From Candidatus Methylomirabilota bacterium (lineage in GTDB: Bacteria; Methylomirabilota; Methylomirabilia; Rokubacteriales; CSP1-6), in assembly GCA_046726415.1 (NCBI GenBank), contig JBKPAK010000189.1, forward strand, positions 11,453-75,452: a stretch of DNA of 64,000 nucleotides. The letters run 5' to 3'. The notes under the pieces were generated by a model. The model saw only the letters and a list, made by a program, of their open reading frames with translations, was not told where the DNA came from and made no database searches. Shown one piece after another: positions 43,473 to 48,856 of the stretch (position 1 is its first letter; each line of letters starts with the position of its first letter). A program made the translations under genes and the position numbers.

Positions 43473-44990
43473 CTACTTCGCGGCGCGCCGCCGCACGGCG
43501 GCCACCACACCACCGGCCAGGACGACGGCCGGCAGCACCACCACCGGCAGCAGAAACACCAGCAAGCCCTGCTGGGAGGTGAGGAACACCGGCGCGGACT
43601 TCGTCTCCTTCGGACGGATGGAGATCTGATCCTCCTGCTCGGCGAGCCAGCTCACCGTGTTCAGGAAGAGGTCGCGATTTCCCTGCAAGTTGAGGAACTG
43701 GTTGGAGGCGAGATTCGAGGTGCCGTACACCACGATGCGAGCCTTGTCCTTGGTGACCACGACCGCCACCGAGGGGCCCTTGATGTCCTTGTCGTCGGCT
43801 CGCACCTCGCCGCGATTGAGGGCGGCGCGGTCCGTCTCCCCCCAGCTCTGCGGGCTGGTCTTCACCAGCGGCTGGACGTTCACGCCCCGCGGCGGGGCCT
43901 TGGCCGAGGAGACGCTGCGCGTAAGCGGGAACAGCGTAGTGATGCCGGCCATGTCGCGCGTGATGGGATGGGGCTCGTACTGCTGCACGATCGGCACCTC
44001 GGGACCGATCCCGAACATACGGCCAATGGGATTGGACTCGATGACGAGATCGTCGCCCAGGTCGACTCCGTAGGCGGCCAGGAACTTCTTCATCCCTTCG
44101 TTCTGGAAGGGATTGACCATGACGAGGAGCTTGCCGCCGCGGCCCAGGTACGCGTTCAGGGCGTCGATCTCCGGAGAGAGCGGATCGGTGCGCGGACCAG
44201 GATCGATCACCACCGCCGCGTCGTCGGAGATCTTCCCCTCGCGGGTCAAGGCCAGCGGTTTCACCTCGTAGTTCGCACCCTCCAGGGCCTTCTTGGCTTC
44301 GCTGAAGCCGGCGCGGTCGGAGCTGTTCAGCTCGTGCTCGCCGTGGCCCTGGATGACATAGACGACGCGCTTGCCCTCGCGCGTCAGCCGCACCAGGCCG
44401 TTGGTGACCTTCTCTTCCTCAGCGTCGGTCACTTTCTCCGATTTGTCCTTGGTCTCCAGCACCACCGTGCCGTACGTCTCCACGTTGTAGCGGCGAGCGA
44501 GCCCCGGCTCGCGGTCGGGATCGACGACCTTCCAGGAGAAGCGCCCGCCCGCGTAGCGGGCGTATTGCTTGAAGAGATCTTCGGCCACGCGCTTTCCCGG
44601 CTGGTCGCTCCGGAAGAAGGCCACCGCGCTGACGTCAGTTTTCAGGTCTCGCAGGAGCTGGATGGTTTGCGGCGCCAGACTATTCCGGCGGTTCTCGGTG
44701 AGATCGAGACGGGCATTGTGCCGATAGGACACCGCCTCCACGATGGCAATGATGCCGAGGAGCAGCACGATCATGAGCGCGGTATTGAGCCCATAGCGGG
44801 CGGTTCGCCCGCGCAGGGTCGCGCGCGCCTCCCGCAGGTAGACCAGGAGCGACAGGACGACCAGAACGGCGCCCACGCCTACCAGCCACGGTCGGACCCG
44901 CAGCCAGTCGGGTCGCGCGAACGGCAGGATCACGGCCGCCGCCAACACGGCCAAGCCGACGTAGCCCGCCCACTCGAGGAGCTTGCGCAT
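43473..44990 (-). CDS. GldG-family ABC transporter auxiliary component
   Basis: Motifs RLDLTEN..SLAPQT, VDPDREP, GHGEHE, YLGRGG, HPIT and NRDLFLNTVSWL. Confidence 0.9.
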   Translation of the reverse strand: MRKLLEWAGYVGLAVLAAAVILPFARPDWLRVRPWLVGVGAVLVVLSLLVYLREARATLRGRTARYGLNTALMIVLLLGIIAIVEAVSYRHNARLDLTENRRNSLAPQTIQLLRDLKTDVSAVAFFRSDQPGKRVAEDLFKQYARYAGGRFSWKVVDPDREPGLARRYNVETYGTVVLETKDKSEKVTDAEEEKVTNGLVRLTREGKRVVYVIQGHGEHELNSSDRAGFSEAKKALEGANYEVKPLALTREGKISDDAAVVIDPGPRTDPLSPEIDALNAYLGRGGKLLVMVNPFQNEGMKKFLAAYGVDLGDDLVIESNPIGRMFGIGPEVPIVQQYEPHPITRDMAGITTLFPLTRSVSSAKAPPRGVNVQPLVKTSPQSWGETDRAALNRGEVRADDKDIKGPSVAVVVTKDKARIVVYGTSNLASNQFLNLQGNRDLFLNTVSWLAEQEDQISIRPKETKSAPVFLTSQQGLLVFLLPVVVLPAVVLAGGVVAAVRRRAAK

Positions 44991-45757
44991 CAGCCCTTCC
45001 AGCGGCGCGCTTCCAGCGAGCGCAGGGTCAAGAACAGGGCGAAGGCGATGAAGGTCACGTAATAGATGATGTCCCGGGTGTCCAGCACGCCCTTTCCGAA
45101 GTTGTCGAAGTGCTCGGTGAGTGACAGATGGGACAGGACGCGTCCGGTGGCGCCTCCCACCGTGTCGGCCGACCAGCCGATGACCCAGAAGATCAGCAAG
45201 ATGCCGAAGGTGGTCATGGCCGCCACGATCTGATTCTCCGTCAGCGAGGAGGCGAAGAGCCCGGCGGCGATGAAGGCGGCCCCCAGCAACAGGAGCCCGA
45301 TGTAGCCGGTCAGGATGGGTCCCCACTCCGGCCGCGCGAAAGAGAGGAGGAGTCCAGGGTACAGCAGGGTGAGAACTAGCATGATCACGTAGAGGACTAA
45401 GGCGGCCAGGAACTTACCGAGGAGGACGGCGCCGTCGCGCACAGGATAGGTGAGCAGGAGCTCGATCGTGCCTGATCGGCGCTCCTCCGCGAAGAGCCGC
45501 ATGGTCACCAGCGGCATGAGGAGAAGCAGGATGACGCTCACGTTGGAGAAGAGCGGGCGCAGCACCATATCGGTGACGTTGAGGTCTCGCCCCATCTGAG
45601 GATTCATGGCCGTCTGGAGGGAGGCGCGCGTGAAGAAGTCGAAGATGGCGAAGAAGAAGTAGCCGGCCAGGACCAGAAAGACGGCGATGACCACGTAGGC
45701 CGTGGGCGACGTGAAGTAGAGTCGCATCTCCTTTTTGAAGATCGGCCACACCCTCAC
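44990..45757 (-). CDS. ABC transporter permease (GldF-like)
   Basis: Motifs KKEMRLYFTSP, TMRLFAEERRSGTIELLLTYP, GKF and SSLTENQIVA. Confidence 0.92.
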   Translation of the reverse strand: MRVWPIFKKEMRLYFTSPTAYVVIAVFLVLAGYFFFAIFDFFTRASLQTAMNPQMGRDLNVTDMVLRPLFSNVSVILLLLMPLVTMRLFAEERRSGTIELLLTYPVRDGAVLLGKFLAALVLYVIMLVLTLLYPGLLLSFARPEWGPILTGYIGLLLLGAAFIAAGLFASSLTENQIVAAMTTFGILLIFWVIGWSADTVGGATGRVLSHLSLTEHFDNFGKGVLDTRDIIYYVTFIAFALFLTLRSLEARRWKG

Positions 45758-46755
45758 GCGTGGGCACTCCCTTCCCCGGTTCCGTCGGTGTCCCCAGTTC
45801 CGTCGGTGGCAACATCCGGCTGCGCCTCTTCGCCGGCCACGATGCGCATGAACACCTCCTCCAGCGTGGTGCCCACCCGCCGCAGCTCCGTCAGCTCCCA
45901 CGTCCGCGCGGCGGCCAACCGGAAGATCTCAGCGCGCACGTCGCGCCCCGGGGCGGCCTCGACCAGCCAGGCGCCGGCCCCGTCCGCGGTGGATTCGGCG
46001 ACGCCGAGGACGCCGGGAATACTGCAGAGCCCGTCGCGGACCGCGGCCGCCGGCCCCTCGATCTGCACCTGAACGCGGGAGACCGGGAAGAACTGCTCGA
46101 CCAGGGTGTCGATGGGGCCCTGGGCCACGATCGAGCCCTTGTTGATGATGATCACGCTCCCGCACACCATGGAGACCTCCGGCAGGATGTGCGTGGAAAG
46201 GATGACGGTGTGGCTGCCGGTCAGAGACTTGATGAGGGCGCGGATCTCCGTGATCTGCTGCGGGTCAAGTCCGATGGTCGGCTCGTCGAGGATCAACACT
46301 TGAGGATCGTTGACGATGGCCTGGGCGATCCCCACCCGCTGGCGATAGCCCTTGGACAGGGCGCCGATCAGGCGGTTCTGCACGTCGGCGATGAGGCAGC
46401 GATCCATGACCTCCGCCACCCGCGCCTTGCGCTGCGCCCGCGGCACGCCCTTCACGTCGGCCACGAAGTCGAGGTAGGGGGCCACCCGCAAGTCGGAGTA
46501 CAGCGGGACATTTTCGGGCAGATAGCCGATGCGCCGACGAACGTCGAGTGAGTCGCGGAACACATCGAAGCCCGCCACGTGGGCGCTGCCGCTGCTCGCC
46601 GGCATGAAGCACGACAGGATGCGCATGGTCGTCGTTTTCCCCGCCCCGTTCGGGCCGAGGAAGCCGACAATGGTTCCCGGCGCCACGCGGAAGGACACAT
46701 CGCGGATGGCGGTCACCGGACCGTAGTGCTTGGTCAATCCCTGGACTTCGATCAT
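45754..46755 (-). CDS. ABC transporter ATP-binding protein (GldA-like)
   Basis: Motifs GPNGAGKTT, LSKGYRQR, ILDEPT and STH. Confidence 0.95.
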   Translation of the reverse strand: MIEVQGLTKHYGPVTAIRDVSFRVAPGTIVGFLGPNGAGKTTTMRILSCFMPASSGSAHVAGFDVFRDSLDVRRRIGYLPENVPLYSDLRVAPYLDFVADVKGVPRAQRKARVAEVMDRCLIADVQNRLIGALSKGYRQRVGIAQAIVNDPQVLILDEPTIGLDPQQITEIRALIKSLTGSHTVILSTHILPEVSMVCGSVIIINKGSIVAQGPIDTLVEQFFPVSRVQVQIEGPAAAVRDGLCSIPGVLGVAESTADGAGAWLVEAAPGRDVRAEIFRLAAARTWELTELRRVGTTLEEVFMRIVAGEEAQPDVATDGTGDTDGTGEGSAHA

Positions 46756-46770
46756 GCGGCCGAACCCAAA

Positions 46771-47196
46771 TTATACACCCTCGGCGGTCGCAGATCCGTC
46801 TGTCGCGATCGGCATGATCGCCTGCAACCATGGCGGCATGGCGATCATCTTGCCGCTGGCGGGATTCCAGCAGGCGTGCAGGGTCGAACCGGTGGCCACC
46901 ACATCCCCCGTCTCGCTGCGGATTTCATAAGAGAAGCGGAAGCTGGCGCGCTTGCGCTCGCTAATCCAGCACCGGACATCCAGGAGGTCATCGAGGTGGG
47001 CCGGGCGCAGGTAGCGCACGGTGGCCTCCACCACCGGCAAACGGATGCGCCGGTCGACCTCTGAGATGGGCAGGCCGTGCTGCCGAAGGAATTCCACGCG
47101 CCCGACCTCGAAGTAGGTCAGGTAGTTGCCGTAGTAGACGACGTTCATGCAGTCCGTATCCTTGTACCGGACGCGGAGGGAGGTCCGGGATACCAT
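46771..47196 (-). CDS. Acyl-CoA thioesterase (YbgC/FadM 4HBT family)
   Basis: Motifs VRYKDTD...VYYGNYLTYFEVGR and YLRPAHLDD. Confidence 0.92.
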   Translation of the reverse strand: MVSRTSLRVRYKDTDCMNVVYYGNYLTYFEVGRVEFLRQHGLPISEVDRRIRLPVVEATVRYLRPAHLDDLLDVRCWISERKRASFRFSYEIRSETGDVVATGSTLHACWNPASGKMIAMPPWLQAIMPIATDGSATAEGV

Positions 47197-47199
47197 GCG

Positions 47200-48135
47200 C
47201 TAGAGGTACTGGCCGTAGCGAATCTTCTCCACAACTCCGCGCACGCGCTTGTATTCGTCGATGGCCATGAGCAGATCCTCGGTGCTCACCGGCGTGGCTT
47301 CGTGGCGCTCGGCCGCTCGGTGGACCTTCACTTCCAGGGCGCGCTGCACGATCTGCGAAATCTCCGCGCCACTCATCCCGCCCATGACCGGCAGCACCGT
47401 CCGGTAGTCGATGTCGGCGAACACCGACCGTCCAGCTAGCCGCTCGATCTTCGCCCGGATCAGGTCGAAGATTTCCTGCTGGGCGGCCGCATCGGGAAGC
47501 GCCACCTCGATGAGATGGTCGAGCCGCCCCGGGGCCACCAGCGCCGGATCGATCGCGTCGGTGCGGGTGGTCGAGGCCAGGACGAGAATGCGCGAGGCCG
47601 CGTCGAGGCCGTCCAGTTTTTCGCACAGGGCCGCCACCAAGCGCGCGCTCGCCTCGCGCGCCTGGGGCGGGGGCAGGAGATGCTCGAGGGCGAGCGCGTC
47701 GGCCTCGTCGAGAAAGAGGACGCCCCGTCCCTCGTTGGCGGCGATGCGAAGGATCTCCTGGAGCAACTCTCCCGTGTTCACCCCGAACTTGGTGGTCAGG
47801 TTGGTGAGCTTCAGGTGGTAGAAGATCGCTTGGGCCGCGGTCGCCAGCGCCCGGGCCAGAGTGGCCTTCCCGGTACCGGGCGGACCATAGAGGAGGAGAC
47901 CCCGGGGAGGCCGGATGCCCCACTGCGCGTACAGCTCCGGCGACGTCAGGGTATAGGCGAAGCCCCGCACGGCGGCCTTGGCCTCGCGGAGTCCGCCGAC
48001 GTCGTCGAAGGAGACGCTGGGGCGAATGCTGGTCTCCACTCGCCCCGTCAGATCGCCGAACTTCTCGCCAAGCTTGGCAAAGACGTCCTCGATCCGCCGC
48101 TGAATCGCCCACTGGAGATCGCTGAGGTCGGACAT
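47200..48135 (-). CDS. Short AAA+ protein with C-terminal GQYL and degenerate catalytic motifs
   Basis: Motifs SFDDVGGL, PRGLLLYGPPGTGKA, FLDEAD, IDPALVAPGRLD and GMSGAEI; ends RYGQYL-stop. Confidence 0.88.
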   Translation of the reverse strand: MSDLSDLQWAIQRRIEDVFAKLGEKFGDLTGRVETSIRPSVSFDDVGGLREAKAAVRGFAYTLTSPELYAQWGIRPPRGLLLYGPPGTGKATLARALATAAQAIFYHLKLTNLTTKFGVNTGELLQEILRIAANEGRGVLFLDEADALALEHLLPPPQAREASARLVAALCEKLDGLDAASRILVLASTTRTDAIDPALVAPGRLDHLIEVALPDAAAQQEIFDLIRAKIERLAGRSVFADIDYRTVLPVMGGMSGAEISQIVQRALEVKVHRAAERHEATPVSTEDLLMAIDEYKRVRGVVEKIRYGQYL

Positions 48136-48153: not shown

Positions 48154-48675
48154 TCAGATCTGCGGACGGCGGGGGGGGGTGAGGAGTTCGCTTTTGTCGA
48201 ACACCCGGTTCTCGACGAGCACCGGCACCTTGGCGCGGATGGCCAACGCGATGGCGTCAGACGGTCGCGCATCCAACTGAAGCGGTGCCGCCGAGCTCTG
48301 CAGATACACGTTCGCGTAGTAGATGCCATCCCTGAGATCCGTGATGACGACCCGGGTGACGCTGACGTGAAGGCGCCCGAACAGGGTGAGGAACAGATCG
48401 TGCGTCAAGGGGCGGATCGGCACCACCCCCTGAAGGGGGACGGCAATGCTGGTCGCCTCCGCAGGACCAATGGCCATGAGCAGCTGTCGCTTGTCGCGCT
48501 TACCCTCCAGCACGACCACGGGGTTCTGGGTCCGCGCGTCCTGCATGACGGCGAGCACCTCGACCTCCTGGGTCGAGAGTGGCGCGGGGGCATCGGCCCG
48601 CTCGCGCGCCGATGCAGTGTGAGCGAGAGCGACGATGACCAGGACGAATACTCCGAGTCGACCGTGGCGTCCCAT
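48154..48675 (-). CDS. Bifunctional nuclease family (DUF151) protein with a signal-like N-terminus
   Basis: Motifs IGPAEATSI, RPLTHDL, GIYYA, DARPSDAIALAIRAKVPV. Confidence 0.9.
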   Translation of the reverse strand: MGRHGRLGVFVLVIVALAHTASARERADAPAPLSTQEVEVLAVMQDARTQNPVVVLEGKRDKRQLLMAIGPAEATSIAVPLQGVVPIRPLTHDLFLTLFGRLHVSVTRVVITDLRDGIYYANVYLQSSAAPLQLDARPSDAIALAIRAKVPVLVENRVFDKSELLTPPRRPQI

Positions 48676-48856
48676 GTTTCCCCCACTTCCGCTAGGATGC
48701 CGCCAGTATAAGCCGGTTCCCACCGCGCCCAGCACCGCCGCGACGGGGATGGACCGCAACAAACCGCACGAAACCGTCGAGGCTCGGGAAGGAGAAGTGC
48801 CTGACCGCGCGGAAGCACAGACGGTCCGCTACAATGGGCGGCACGCCGATTCTCGC

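What the first reader, a model, noticed from the sequence alone, without database searches (positions are those of the whole stretch)
47200..48135. Minimal, catalytically degenerate AAA+ protein ending in GQYL: candidate new 20S proteasome cap or regulator
Seen: a 311-aa single AAA module ending ...KIRYGQYL-stop, with only about 40 aa before the ATPase core. Several key positions deviate together: Walker A GPPGTGKA (usually GK[T/S]); pore loop TKFGVN (usually K[YFW]VGE); sensor-1 STTR (usually ATNR); and second region of homology ALVAPGR (usually ALLRPGR, so the first arginine finger is lost). Walker B (FLDE) is intact. Established: C-terminal GQYL is the 20S-core docking motif of the bacterial proteasome activators ARC/Mpa and Bpa/PafE. 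Mpa also has a Pup-binding coiled coil and OB domains, which are absent here. Inference: this could be a Pup-independent, possibly ATP-hydrolysis-independent gate opener, a competitive inhibitor, or a hetero-oligomeric partner of ARC. The intact ORF and retained tail argue against simple decay. No prcA/prcB/pup genes lie in this window.
Basis: partly seen in the sequence, partly recalled or inferred. Interest (0 to 1): 0.85.

Follow-up and report, generated by a model that had tools for sequence, protein, structure and literature searches.

The report
Stand-alone AAA ring with proteasome-docking tail
A small, widely conserved ATPase-like protein of soil Methylomirabilota (Rokubacteria) carries the exact tail that known bacterial activators use to dock on the 20S proteasome, so it is probably an undescribed proteasome cap or regulator, but binding has not been tested.

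Summary
The ORF is real: window 47200-48135 (-), 311 aa, one AAA module, ending KIRYGQYL.

It belongs to a single-copy family of about 313 aa. A tail scan found the family in 142 of 170 Methylomirabilota genomes. The RYGQYL end is kept from 100% down to 38% identity.

The window's genome has a full Mpa-Dop-PrcB-PrcA locus, two Pup genes and no Bpa. In this phylum both Mpa (TGQYL) and Bpa (PGQYL or PGHYL) use the same tail code.

The family forms its own branch of classical AAA proteins. It is PAN-like in fold, is not a truncated Mpa, and has no longer fused forms.

In the query's clade (170 unique sequences):
- the first SRH arginine is always lost;
- the sensor-1 Asn is mostly lost;
- the Walker A Ser/Thr is often Ala;
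- the Walker B Glu is Gln in 13.

The P-loop Lys, the pore-loop Phe and the tail stay fixed. The NC10-like sister clade keeps mostly canonical motifs.

Best reading (about 0.55): a hexameric ring that binds nucleotide, hydrolyses it poorly, and docks on the 20S alpha ring.

Against this reading, the gene is never in a proteasome operon. It sits in a conserved BFN-AAA-thioesterase-ABC operon. No binding test could be run.

The parts
47200..48135 (-). Gene for the 311-aa stand-alone AAA protein with the GQYL tail
   Evidence: ORF. Pfam AAA 80-212. AF2 model with pLDDT 91.3. Family found in 142 of 170 genomes of the phylum.
47203..47229 (-). Codons for the last nine residues, EKIRYGQYL. KIRYGQYL is invariant in a 34-sequence alignment of the family.
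   Evidence: Synonymous codon variation without amino-acid change is visible.
48058..48132 (-). N-terminal helix (res 2-26), the only element before the AAA module. It is strongly conserved in the clade (W9, Q12, R13, R14, D17, G23-K25).
   Evidence: Secondary structure. Per-position conservation.
47863..47886 (-). Walker A, GPPGTGKA. Lys90 is invariant. The following Ser/Thr position is Ala here.
   Evidence: K in 170/170; +1 position S63/A58/T46/G3.
47776..47793 (-). Pore-loop-1 region, TKFGVN. Lys and Phe are kept; the usual hydrophobic-Gly order is altered.
   Evidence: F117 in 169/170 of the clade; W in 17/17 of the sister clade.
47704..47715 (-). Walker B, FLDE, intact in this protein.
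   Evidence: E144 in 156/170, Q in 13, D in 1 in the clade; f2 orthologues have DD or ED.
47563..47574 (-). Sensor-1 region, STTR (Asn replaced by Thr).
   Evidence: Asn in only 9/170 of the clade; 13/17 of the sister clade.
47524..47544 (-). Second region of homology, ALVAPGR. The first arginine is Ala; the second (R204) is kept.
   Evidence: Arg at 201 in 0/170 of the clade and 9/17 of the sister clade; R204 in 193/193.
48154..48762 (-). Upstream gene, 18 nt from the AAA start. It encodes a BFN-domain protein with a signal-peptide-like N-terminus. This neighbour is conserved in the query's clade.
   Evidence: Pfam BFN_dom, E 8.9e-34. PDB match TM0160. Present upstream in 44 of 70 loci.
46771..47196 (-). 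Downstream gene, starting 3 nt after the AAA stop. It encodes a 4HBT/YbgC-like thioesterase and is a conserved neighbour.
   Evidence: Present downstream in 48 of 70 loci.
45754..46755 (-). ABC transporter ATPase. It is followed by ABC-2 permease and GldG-like auxiliary ORFs (44990-45901 and 43473-45326 as listed). Probably the same operon.
   Evidence: The ABC ATPase is found in 37 of 70 loci within the 2 kb fetched.

Best explanation
The gene encodes a member of an undescribed family of stand-alone, PAN-like AAA modules. The family is single-copy and spread across most Methylomirabilota. Its invariant C-terminal tail (K-I-R-Y-G-Q-Y-L) is the docking code for the bacterial 20S proteasome. Inferred mechanism: six subunits form a ring held together by bound nucleotide. 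Their free C-terminal tails insert into the pockets between PrcA alpha subunits, against the conserved Lys52. The ring therefore caps the core particle independently of Pup, because it has no coiled coil or OB domain. In the query's Rokubacterial clade the residues that drive ATP hydrolysis have decayed, while the P-loop Lys, the pore-loop Phe and the tail are fixed. This version is therefore more likely an ATP-binding, hydrolysis-poor gate opener or occupancy regulator than an unfoldase. Functionally it would resemble Bpa/PafE, or compete with Mpa. The NC10-like sister clade, with mostly canonical motifs, may still be an active unfoldase. Shown here: gene, family, conservation pattern, fold, and a proteasome in the same genomes. 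Inferred: ring formation, docking, and the effect on the gate.
For: 1) Tail conservation in sets not chosen by the tail. Of the best 120 homologues, 117 end RYGQYL. Cluster representatives at 71%, 45% and 38% identity end EKIRYGQYL. Four of 4 f2 orthologues (53-54% identity) end VVKIRYGQYL, and G124 ends EKTRYGQYL. KIRYGQYL is invariant in a 34-sequence alignment, whereas the Walker B residues are not.
2) GQYL is the motif needed for 20S activation by Mpa and PafE/Bpa (passages of PMC12288473, and PMC6017811). Bpa itself was discovered by a search for this tail combined with prcAB co-occurrence (PMC4254994 section 16).
3) The same code is used in this phylum. The window genome's Mpa ends NTGQYL. 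Bpa homologues of 4 relatives end PGQYL (3) or PGHYL (1).
4) The window's genome has Mpa at 748 bits, Dop at 617.5, PrcB at 317.7 and PrcA at 335.4, all over the curated cut-offs. PrcA keeps Lys52 and the N-terminal gate residues, which are invariant in 12 PrcA sequences.
5) Apart from one short frame that is probably spurious, the only GQYL-ending frames in the genome are Mpa, an Mpa fragment and this protein.
6) Distribution. The tail is in 142 of 170 genomes of the phylum and the 20S alpha subunit in 144 of 170. Family f4 (2 genomes, 100% complete) lacks both. In 4 of 5 checked 'tail but no alpha' genomes, Mpa or PrcB pieces lie at contig ends. The one lineage outside the phylum list (G170) carries the gene and a 20S alpha on the same contig. 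Eleven of its 12 relatives have neither.
7) The fold is PAN-like and the tail is free. The AF2 model has pLDDT 91.3, with a last helix at 285-306 followed by a 5-residue tail. The top Foldseek hit is the PAN AAA domain 3h4m (E 6.7e-21, TMt 0.87).
8) Decay of hydrolysis residues alongside retention of binding residues.
Against: No physical or in-silico binding test was obtained. The gene is not next to proteasome genes in any context examined. The one exception is an Mpa-like paralogue lying convergent to it in G014 (L213). In the query's clade it sits in a tight operon with an apparently exported BFN-domain protein, a thioesterase and an ABC-2 transporter, which suggests no proteasome link. 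Inside the phylum, presence of the tail does not track presence of the 20S: 122 of 142 tail-positive genomes have alpha, against 22 of 28 tail-negative ones. Ten of 11 f11 genomes have a 20S, but only 1 of 11 has the tail. A complete f11 genome has no orthologue, so the protein is dispensable for the proteasome. G147 (93% complete) has the gene, but no proteasome gene was found there. G184 has a 20S alpha but no orthologue. The modelled tail extends only 5 residues past the last helix. R204 and, in this protein, the Walker B DE are intact, so some ATPase activity cannot be excluded.
Confidence: 0.55

Rival explanations
1. The AAA ring works with its operon partners or some other cellular machine, not with the proteasome. 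Candidate partners are the BFN-domain protein, the thioesterase and the ABC-2 exporter. The conserved tail would then bind a different partner, or pack back on the ring itself for assembly. On this view the identity with the proteasome motif is coincidental.
For: The BFN-AAA-thioesterase order is conserved, with gaps of 18 nt and 3 nt. It is seen in 44 and 48 of 70 loci, and the ABC ATPase in 37 of 70. There is no proteasome gene in the neighbourhood. Nine tail residues are invariant, not only the four of the motif, which could reflect a different binding site.
Against: The operon is restricted to the query's clade. Sister-clade genes have unrelated neighbours (GNAT; LysM-SLT/patatin; LexA/ThiF) yet the same tail, so the tail's partner must be encoded elsewhere and be common to all. 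The BFN protein has a signal-peptide-like N-terminus, which makes it an unlikely partner for a cytosolic ring. Chance convergence on GQYL at the extreme C-terminus of a PAN-like ring, in a phylum whose Mpa and Bpa use that code, is improbable.
Confidence: 0.25
2. It is a fully active, Pup-independent unfoldase cap, a bacterial mini-PAN. The substitutions in this clade are tolerated, and ATP hydrolysis still drives substrate translocation into the 20S.
For: In this protein the Walker A Lys, Walker B DE, second SRH Arg and pore-loop Phe are all present. The sister clade has GKT, a KW pore loop, sensor-1 Asn in 13/17 and SRH Arg in 9/17.
Against: In the clade the first SRH Arg is absent in 170/170. 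Sensor-1 Asn is absent in 161/170. The Mg-coordinating Ser/Thr is Ala or Gly in 61/170. Walker B Glu is Gln in 13/170. The f2 orthologues have DD or ED. This drift indicates relaxed selection on hydrolysis. There is also no substrate-recognition domain.
Confidence: 0.12
3. It mixes into, or stacks onto, Mpa rings as a regulatory subunit, rather than forming its own cap.
For: The two share an AAA fold and tail. The window's genome also holds an orphan Mpa C-terminal fragment, which hints at modular reuse. The review (passages seen) notes that Mpa seems to need extra factors to expose its tail.
Against: It is a separate long branch from Mpa in the tree and scores only 109 bits against the Mpa model. 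It lacks the coiled-coil and OB domains, which from recalled knowledge organise the Mpa hexamer. Nothing was tested.
Confidence: 0.05
4. It is a decaying, functionless remnant of an AAA gene.
For: Several catalytic residues are lost.
Against: The frame is intact in nearly all genomes and the gene is single-copy. It is present in 142 of 170 genomes. Many positions are invariant, including the N-terminal helix and the tail. The AF2 model is high-confidence.
Confidence: 0.03

Closest known systems
Mpa/ARC, the bacterial proteasomal ATPase (NCBIfam TIGR03689)
   Same: A classical AAA module. The C-terminus ends in GQYL. It is encoded in the same genomes.
   Different: The query scores 109 bits against a cut-off of 504.75. 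It has no coiled coil, no double OB domain, and no beta-grasp domain before the tail. It forms a separate branch, and hydrolysis residues have decayed in this clade.
PAN, the archaeal proteasome-activating nucleotidase (AAA domain, PDB 3h4m)
   Same: It is the best structural match (Foldseek E 6.7e-21, TMt 0.87) and the best NCBIfam profile (178.8 bits). It also has a free C-terminal tail with a penultimate Tyr.
   Different: The score is far below the cut-off of 500. There is no coiled-coil/OB N-domain. The query is bacterial and carries a GQYL rather than an HbYX tail. It does not fall inside the PAN-like group in the tree.
Bpa/PafE, the ATP-independent bacterial proteasome activator (Pfam PF10759)
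   Same: A GQYL tail. The proposed role is similar: gate opening without ATP-driven unfolding. Bpa was discovered by the same tail logic (PMC4254994).
   Different: The fold is unrelated, and by the literature Bpa is a dodecamer rather than an AAA hexamer. Bpa is absent from the window's genome but present alongside the AAA in some relatives, so the two are not simple substitutes.
Cpa, the Cdc48-like protein of actinobacteria
   Same: An AAA protein proposed as an additional proteasome interactor.
   Different: Cpa is a two-AAA-domain Cdc48-like protein without an HbYX or GQYL tail, and its C-terminus does not mediate binding (PMC6017811 passages). The query has a single module and an invariant tail.
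Hydrolysis-inactive structural AAA rings such as NSF-D2 (recalled, not tested here)
   Same: Retention of nucleotide-binding residues with loss of hydrolysis residues suggests a nucleotide-stabilised ring.
   Different: This is analogy only. No sequence or functional link was examined.

Membership tests
Classical-clade AAA ATPases (Pfam PF00004) | AAA domain match above the gathering score | tested here: met
   93.8 bits against a cut-off of 21.2, residues 80-212.
Mpa/ARC (TIGR03689 pup_AAA) | Whole-protein score above the curated cut-off | tested here: not met
   109 bits against 504.75. The genome's true Mpa scores 748.
Mpa/ARC (TIGR03689 pup_AAA) | N-terminal coiled coil and tandem OB domains | tested here: not met
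   There are no Prot_ATP_ID_OB hits. Only about 38 aa, one helix, precede the module. No longer fused relatives exist.
Mpa/ARC (TIGR03689 pup_AAA) | C-terminal GQYL | tested here: met
PAN (NF003069 / TIGR01242) | Whole-protein score above the curated cut-off | tested here: not met
   178.8 and 167.6 bits against 500.
PAN (NF003069 / TIGR01242) | AAA-module fold like PAN | tested here: met
   Foldseek rank 1 is 3h4m_A, with TMt 0.87.
Bpa/PafE (PF10759) | Match to the BPA profile | tested here: not met
   The Pfam scan lists only AAA-type families. A PF10759 search of the genome found nothing.
GQYL-tailed 20S activators (functional class) | Conserved extreme C-terminal GQYL with penultimate Tyr | tested here: met
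   117 of 120 homologues. Also the representatives at 71, 45 and 38% identity, the f2 orthologues and G124.
GQYL-tailed 20S activators (functional class) | Occurs only where prcA and prcB occur | tested here: inconclusive
   122 of 142 tail-positive genomes have alpha. In 4 of 5 exceptions checked, proteasome genes are cut at contig ends. Family f4 lacks both. G170 has both on one contig. However, the 20S is near-universal in the phylum, and no proteasome gene was found in G147.
GQYL-tailed 20S activators (functional class) | Ring-shaped oligomer that binds the alpha ring and opens the gate | not testable with these tools
   The complex prediction never ran. Biochemistry is needed.
Known anti-phage defence systems (PADLOC) | Specific match to a defence protein model | tested here: not met
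   Only generic AAA similarity to IetA/TRIP13 at 78 bits or less. The neighbours have no hits.

The most novel reading that the evidence does not exclude
An AAA+ ring has been converted into a passive proteasome cap. It binds nucleotide but no longer hydrolyses it. It opens the bacterial 20S gate, or controls access to it, through GQYL tails. Functionally this would be a Bpa/PA28-like activator, or an anti-activator competing with Mpa, built on a PAN scaffold. Its catalytically canonical orthologues in NC10-type bacteria would still act as a Pup-independent unfoldase. The same orthologous family would then show the transition from motor to passive regulator, giving bacteria a fourth class of proteasome partner.
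Probability: 0.3. Interest if true: 0.82.

Novelty: new variant of a known kind. Interest (0 to 1): 0.68.

Why it matters
According to the 2025 minireview (passages seen), bacterial proteasome biology knows three partners of the core particle: Mpa/ARC, Bpa/PafE and Cpa. The same review says that nothing is known about how activator association is regulated. Nearly all experimental work is in Actinobacteria.

This family would add a fourth candidate partner. It lacks any Pup-binding domain, is spread through a whole non-actinobacterial soil phylum, and comes in a canonical and a hydrolysis-degenerate version. The small proteins could be expressed together with their cognate PrcAB. That would directly test two questions:
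- whether nucleotide binding alone is enough for an AAA ring to open a bacterial 20S gate;
- whether caps compete for the alpha ring.

The family also shows that the GQYL code has been recruited onto a third unrelated scaffold.

Tried and rejected
- **Complex prediction.** The job was two PrcA chains (alignment A4) plus residues 212-311 of the AAA (alignment A3). I handed it in unchanged many times. The queue was full, and there was no usable answer. It never ran, so there is no result of any kind.
- **The search for related loci.** Run with the family alignment, it was swamped by the generic Walker A pattern. Only 1 of the 80 matches kept (79 distinct loci), L012, is a family member. I replaced it with a back-translated tail pattern.
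- **First tail pattern.** EK.RYGQYL missed the f2 orthologues (VVKIRYGQYL) and wrongly suggested 0 of 15 in f2. The relaxed pattern corrected this.
- **Apparent 'tail without proteasome' genomes.** G031, G032, G148 and G152 are assembly breaks, not real absences.
- **Non-Methylomirabilota labels.** The labels were Verrucomicrobiia, Dormibacterota and 'bacterium'. For three loci (L116, L163, L115) the genomes have the same coordinates as phylum members G120, G102 and G006.
- **HslU-substitute idea.** Rejected, because a full HslU (649 bits) is present.
- **Defence-system idea.** Rejected.
- **Expression.** No RNA holder is listed for the operon, only soil DNA runs.
- **Fused forms.** Among proteins of 546-2000 aa only P0124 is a family member. 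It is an over-extended, C-truncated call with no extra domain.
- **Other scans.** The ESM Atlas gave only the family's own clusters. No tRNA or Rfam family lies in the window.
Full report
**Observation.** The minus strand of the window carries an ATG-initiated ORF at 47200-48135. It encodes 311 aa and ends ...VVEKIRYGQYL-stop (DNA).
- Walker A GPPGTGKA (84-91)
- TKFGVN (115-120)
- Walker B FLDE (141-144)
- STTR (188-191)
- ALVAPGR (198-204)

Pfam sees a single AAA domain at residues 80-212 (93.8 bits). Alignments to Cdc48 and PAN chains start at residues 34-39. Only one short N-terminal element therefore precedes the module. The AlphaFold2 model (34-sequence alignment, mean pLDDT 91.3, pTM 0.87) shows a helix at 2-26, a normal AAA large and small domain, a last helix at 285-306, and a free five-residue tail.

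**A conserved family.**
- The word-indexed search gave 2270 hits among 8000 scored candidates. The best 120 are 73-100% identical and 275-344 aa long (most about 313 aa), and the names that sources give point to Rokubacteria/Methylomirabilota.
- Of these 120, 117 end RYGQYL. One ends RYSQYL, one RYGQSL, and one lacks the last two residues.
- The exhaustive search of 50%-identity representatives listed 150 proteins. Six of them end GQYL. They include full-length representatives at 71%, 45% and 38% identity that all end EKIRYGQYL.
Of these, 73 held a full-length frame: 57 at 64-86% identity, 15 at 44-49% and one at 39%. Tail conservation in this set is circular, because the loci were found by the tail.
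- Orthologues found by protein similarity alone are not circular. Four of 4 f2 genomes (53-54% identity) end VVKIRYGQYL, and G124 ends EKTRYGQYL.
- In a 34-sequence alignment spanning the family, K304-L311 are invariant, whereas the Walker B residues are not.
- Among proteins of 546-2000 aa the only family member is an over-extended, truncated gene call with no extra domain. The next hits are Cdc48 proteins at 38% identity or less. The family therefore stands alone.

**Catalytic residues.** The table covers 193 unique full-length sequences.

| Position | Query's clade (n=170) | Sister clade, 42-50% id, NC10-like (n=17) |
|---|---|---|
| P-loop Lys | 170 | 17 |
| Next residue (Mg-coordinating) | S63 / A58 / T46 / G3 | Thr/Ser 17 |
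| Pore-loop aromatic | Phe 169 | Trp 17 |
| Walker B | Glu 156, Gln 13, Asp 1 | DE in 16 |
| Sensor-1 Asn | 9 (Ser 105, Thr 54) | 13 |
| First SRH Arg | 0 (Ala 159) | 9 |
| Second SRH Arg | 170 | 17 |

- The four f2 orthologues have GNGKT, a Val at the pore position, and Walker B DD or ED.
The pore aromatic is not lost.
- The joint decay of hydrolysis-linked residues, set against fixed binding residues and a fixed tail, is real.
- In a quick maximum-likelihood tree the family is one group (SH-aLRT 98). The query's clade plus f2 is one subgroup (SH-aLRT 99). This is consistent with a single shift.

**Proteasome in the genome and the phylum.**
- Contig C90 of the window's genome carries Mpa (748 bits), Dop (617.5), PrcB (317.7) and PrcA (335.4), all above NCBIfam cut-offs. 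The contig ends shortly after prcA.
- Mpa ends NTGQYL.
- Two stand-alone Pup-like ORFs end YVQRGGE.
- No PafA and no Bpa were found.
- PrcA keeps Lys52 and the N-terminal gate segment. Both are invariant in 12 PrcA sequences of the phylum.
- Bpa homologues exist in 5 of 26 relatives; one of these genomes is flagged unpublished. The four I read end PGQYL (3) or PGHYL (1). The G[QH]YL code therefore operates in this phylum on two established activators.
- In the whole genome only four frames of 60 aa or more end GQYL: Mpa, an orphan Mpa C-terminal fragment, this protein, and a 68-aa frame that is probably spurious.

**Co-occurrence.**
- Across 170 genomes of the phylum (85% or more complete), the K.RYGQYL-stop pattern is in 142. 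The reversed control pattern gave 0. The bacterial 20S alpha subunit is in 144, with 142 over the cut-off.
- Cross-tabulating the two lists gives: tail+alpha+ 122, tail+alpha- 20, tail-alpha+ 22, tail-alpha- 6.
- These tallies include five genomes flagged unpublished (G026, G033, G052, G145, G146). Without them the table is 118, 19, 22 and 6.
- This is no association, because the 20S is near-universal in the phylum.
- Informative details:
  - Family f4 (two genomes, 100% complete) lacks the alpha subunit, the tail and any orthologue.
  - Of five tail+alpha- genomes examined, four have Mpa or PrcB pieces at contig ends: G031, G032, G148 and G152. For G147 nothing was found.
  - Family f11 has the 20S in 10 of 11 genomes but the tail in only 1 of 11. 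A complete f11 genome has no orthologue.
- G170 carries the most divergent member (39% identity) on the same contig as a 20S alpha gene. In my searches none of its 12 relatives has the tail, and only one (G184) has a 20S alpha. Four of them, including G184, were also searched by protein, and no orthologue was found.
- For three loci with non-Methylomirabilota labels (L115, L116, L163), the genomes have the same coordinates as phylum members G006, G120 and G102.

**Relation to known AAA families.**
- No NCBIfam model reaches its cut-off. The scores are PAN 178.8 (cut-off 500), CDC48 152.3, FtsH 130.9 and Mpa 109 (cut-off 504.75).
- The best single-domain PDB sequence match is PAN (140.6 bits). 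The Cdc48 D2 and D1 domains score 129 and 116.
- The best structural match is the PAN AAA domain 3h4m.
- In the tree the family sits on a long stem, separate from Mpa, PAN-like, Cdc48 D1/D2 and FtsH-like groups. The deep order is unresolved, and one long-branch warning concerns an unrelated 572-aa AAA.
- It is therefore not a truncated Mpa. The GQYL tail sits on a third scaffold.

**Context.**
- In the window the gene lies 18 nt after a BFN-domain gene and 3 nt before a 4HBT thioesterase gene. The BFN protein has a signal-peptide-like start and resembles TM0160. An ABC ATPase, an ABC-2 permease and a GldG-like protein follow.
- This order is conserved in the query's clade: BFN in 44, thioesterase in 48 and ABC ATPase in 37 of 70 loci.
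- Sister-clade genes have other neighbours: GNAT, LysM-SLT/patatin, or LexA/ThiF/another AAA. In one genome (G014) an Mpa-like 566-aa gene ending TGHYL lies convergent to it.
- No proteasome operon linkage exists.
- PADLOC gives only generic AAA hits. HslU and HslV are both present.

**Mechanism.**
- Shown: a conserved stand-alone PAN-like AAA module with an invariant proteasome-docking tail, in genomes with a gated 20S whose other activators use that tail.
- Inferred: hexamer formation, insertion of the tails into inter-alpha pockets, and Pup-independence, because there is no coiled coil or OB domain.
- Also inferred for this clade: nucleotide binding without efficient hydrolysis. The ring would then act as a passive gate opener for unfolded proteins or peptides, or as an occupancy regulator competing with Mpa.
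- From recalled knowledge, ATP binding alone lets PAN associate with the 20S and open its gate. I did not check this in the library.
- I put about 0.55 on tail-mediated 20S docking in any of these forms.
- I put 0.25 on a non-proteasomal partner. The remainder goes to an active mini-unfoldase reading, Mpa mixing or decay.

**Literature.**
- The full-text search for 'GQYL' found 23 papers. Judged from the 20 listed titles and abstracts, none concerns this family or phylum.
- 'Proteasome' with 'Rokubacteria' gave 6 irrelevant papers.
- 'Methylomirabil', 'proteasome' and 'Pup' gave nothing relevant among the 15 listed.
- I read passages only of PMC12288473, PMC4254994 and PMC6017811.
- Subscription-journal papers are outside the library, so 'not in print' means 'not found by these three searches'.

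**Not done.** The complex prediction never ran. No RNA data hold the locus. Oligomeric state, nucleotide binding and 20S binding all need experiments.

Noticed in passing
G000 contig C330, locus L006:1489-2043 (+): An orphan piece of a second Mpa. It covers only the C-terminal part (pup_AAA positions 353-510, 183 bits) and ends TTGQYL. The upstream part of the frame is not homologous. It could be a pseudogene remnant or a free tail-bearing fragment able to occupy 20S pockets.
   Followed up: partly
G000 contigs C193:1880-2113 (+) and C223:10566-10769 (+): Two stand-alone Pup-like ORFs (77 and 67 aa) end ...YVQRGGE, away from the Mpa-Dop-PrcBA locus. Only one Pup-ligase-family gene was found in the genome, and it scores as Dop. 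No PafA was found, but contig C90 ends about 240 nt after prcA.
   Followed up: partly
Locus L213:8175-9875 (+) (G014, contig C1): An extra Mpa-like gene of 566 aa, with OB-N, OB-C and AAA domains, ends TGHYL. It lies convergent to, and next to, the clade-A GQYL-tailed AAA gene. The main 20S locus of that genome is on another contig.
   Followed up: no
Loci L252-L255 (G153, G113, G155, G179): Bpa/PafE homologues (PF10759) occur in some Methylomirabilota. They end PGQYL (3) or PGHYL (1). The window's genome has none.
   Followed up: partly
Several MAGs: G031:C607, G032:C139, G148:C212, G152:C15; also G000:C90: The proteasome locus repeatedly sits at contig ends in these assemblies. Mpa is cut by the contig end, or the contig stops just after prcA. 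As a result, simple presence/absence counts understate how often the 20S is present.
   Followed up: yes
Window 48154-48762 (-): The BFN-domain protein upstream has a signal-peptide-like segment (hydrophobic stretch ending ASA) after an alternative internal start. An exported 'bifunctional nuclease' domain protein co-transcribed with a cytosolic AAA protein is unexplained.
   Followed up: no
Locus L216:5446-8520 (-) (G032, contig C226): In family f8 the GQYL-tailed AAA gene is followed, on the opposite strand, by a ThiF-family (E1-like) gene and a very divergent 572-aa AAA gene. The latter is the longest branch in the tree.
   Followed up: no
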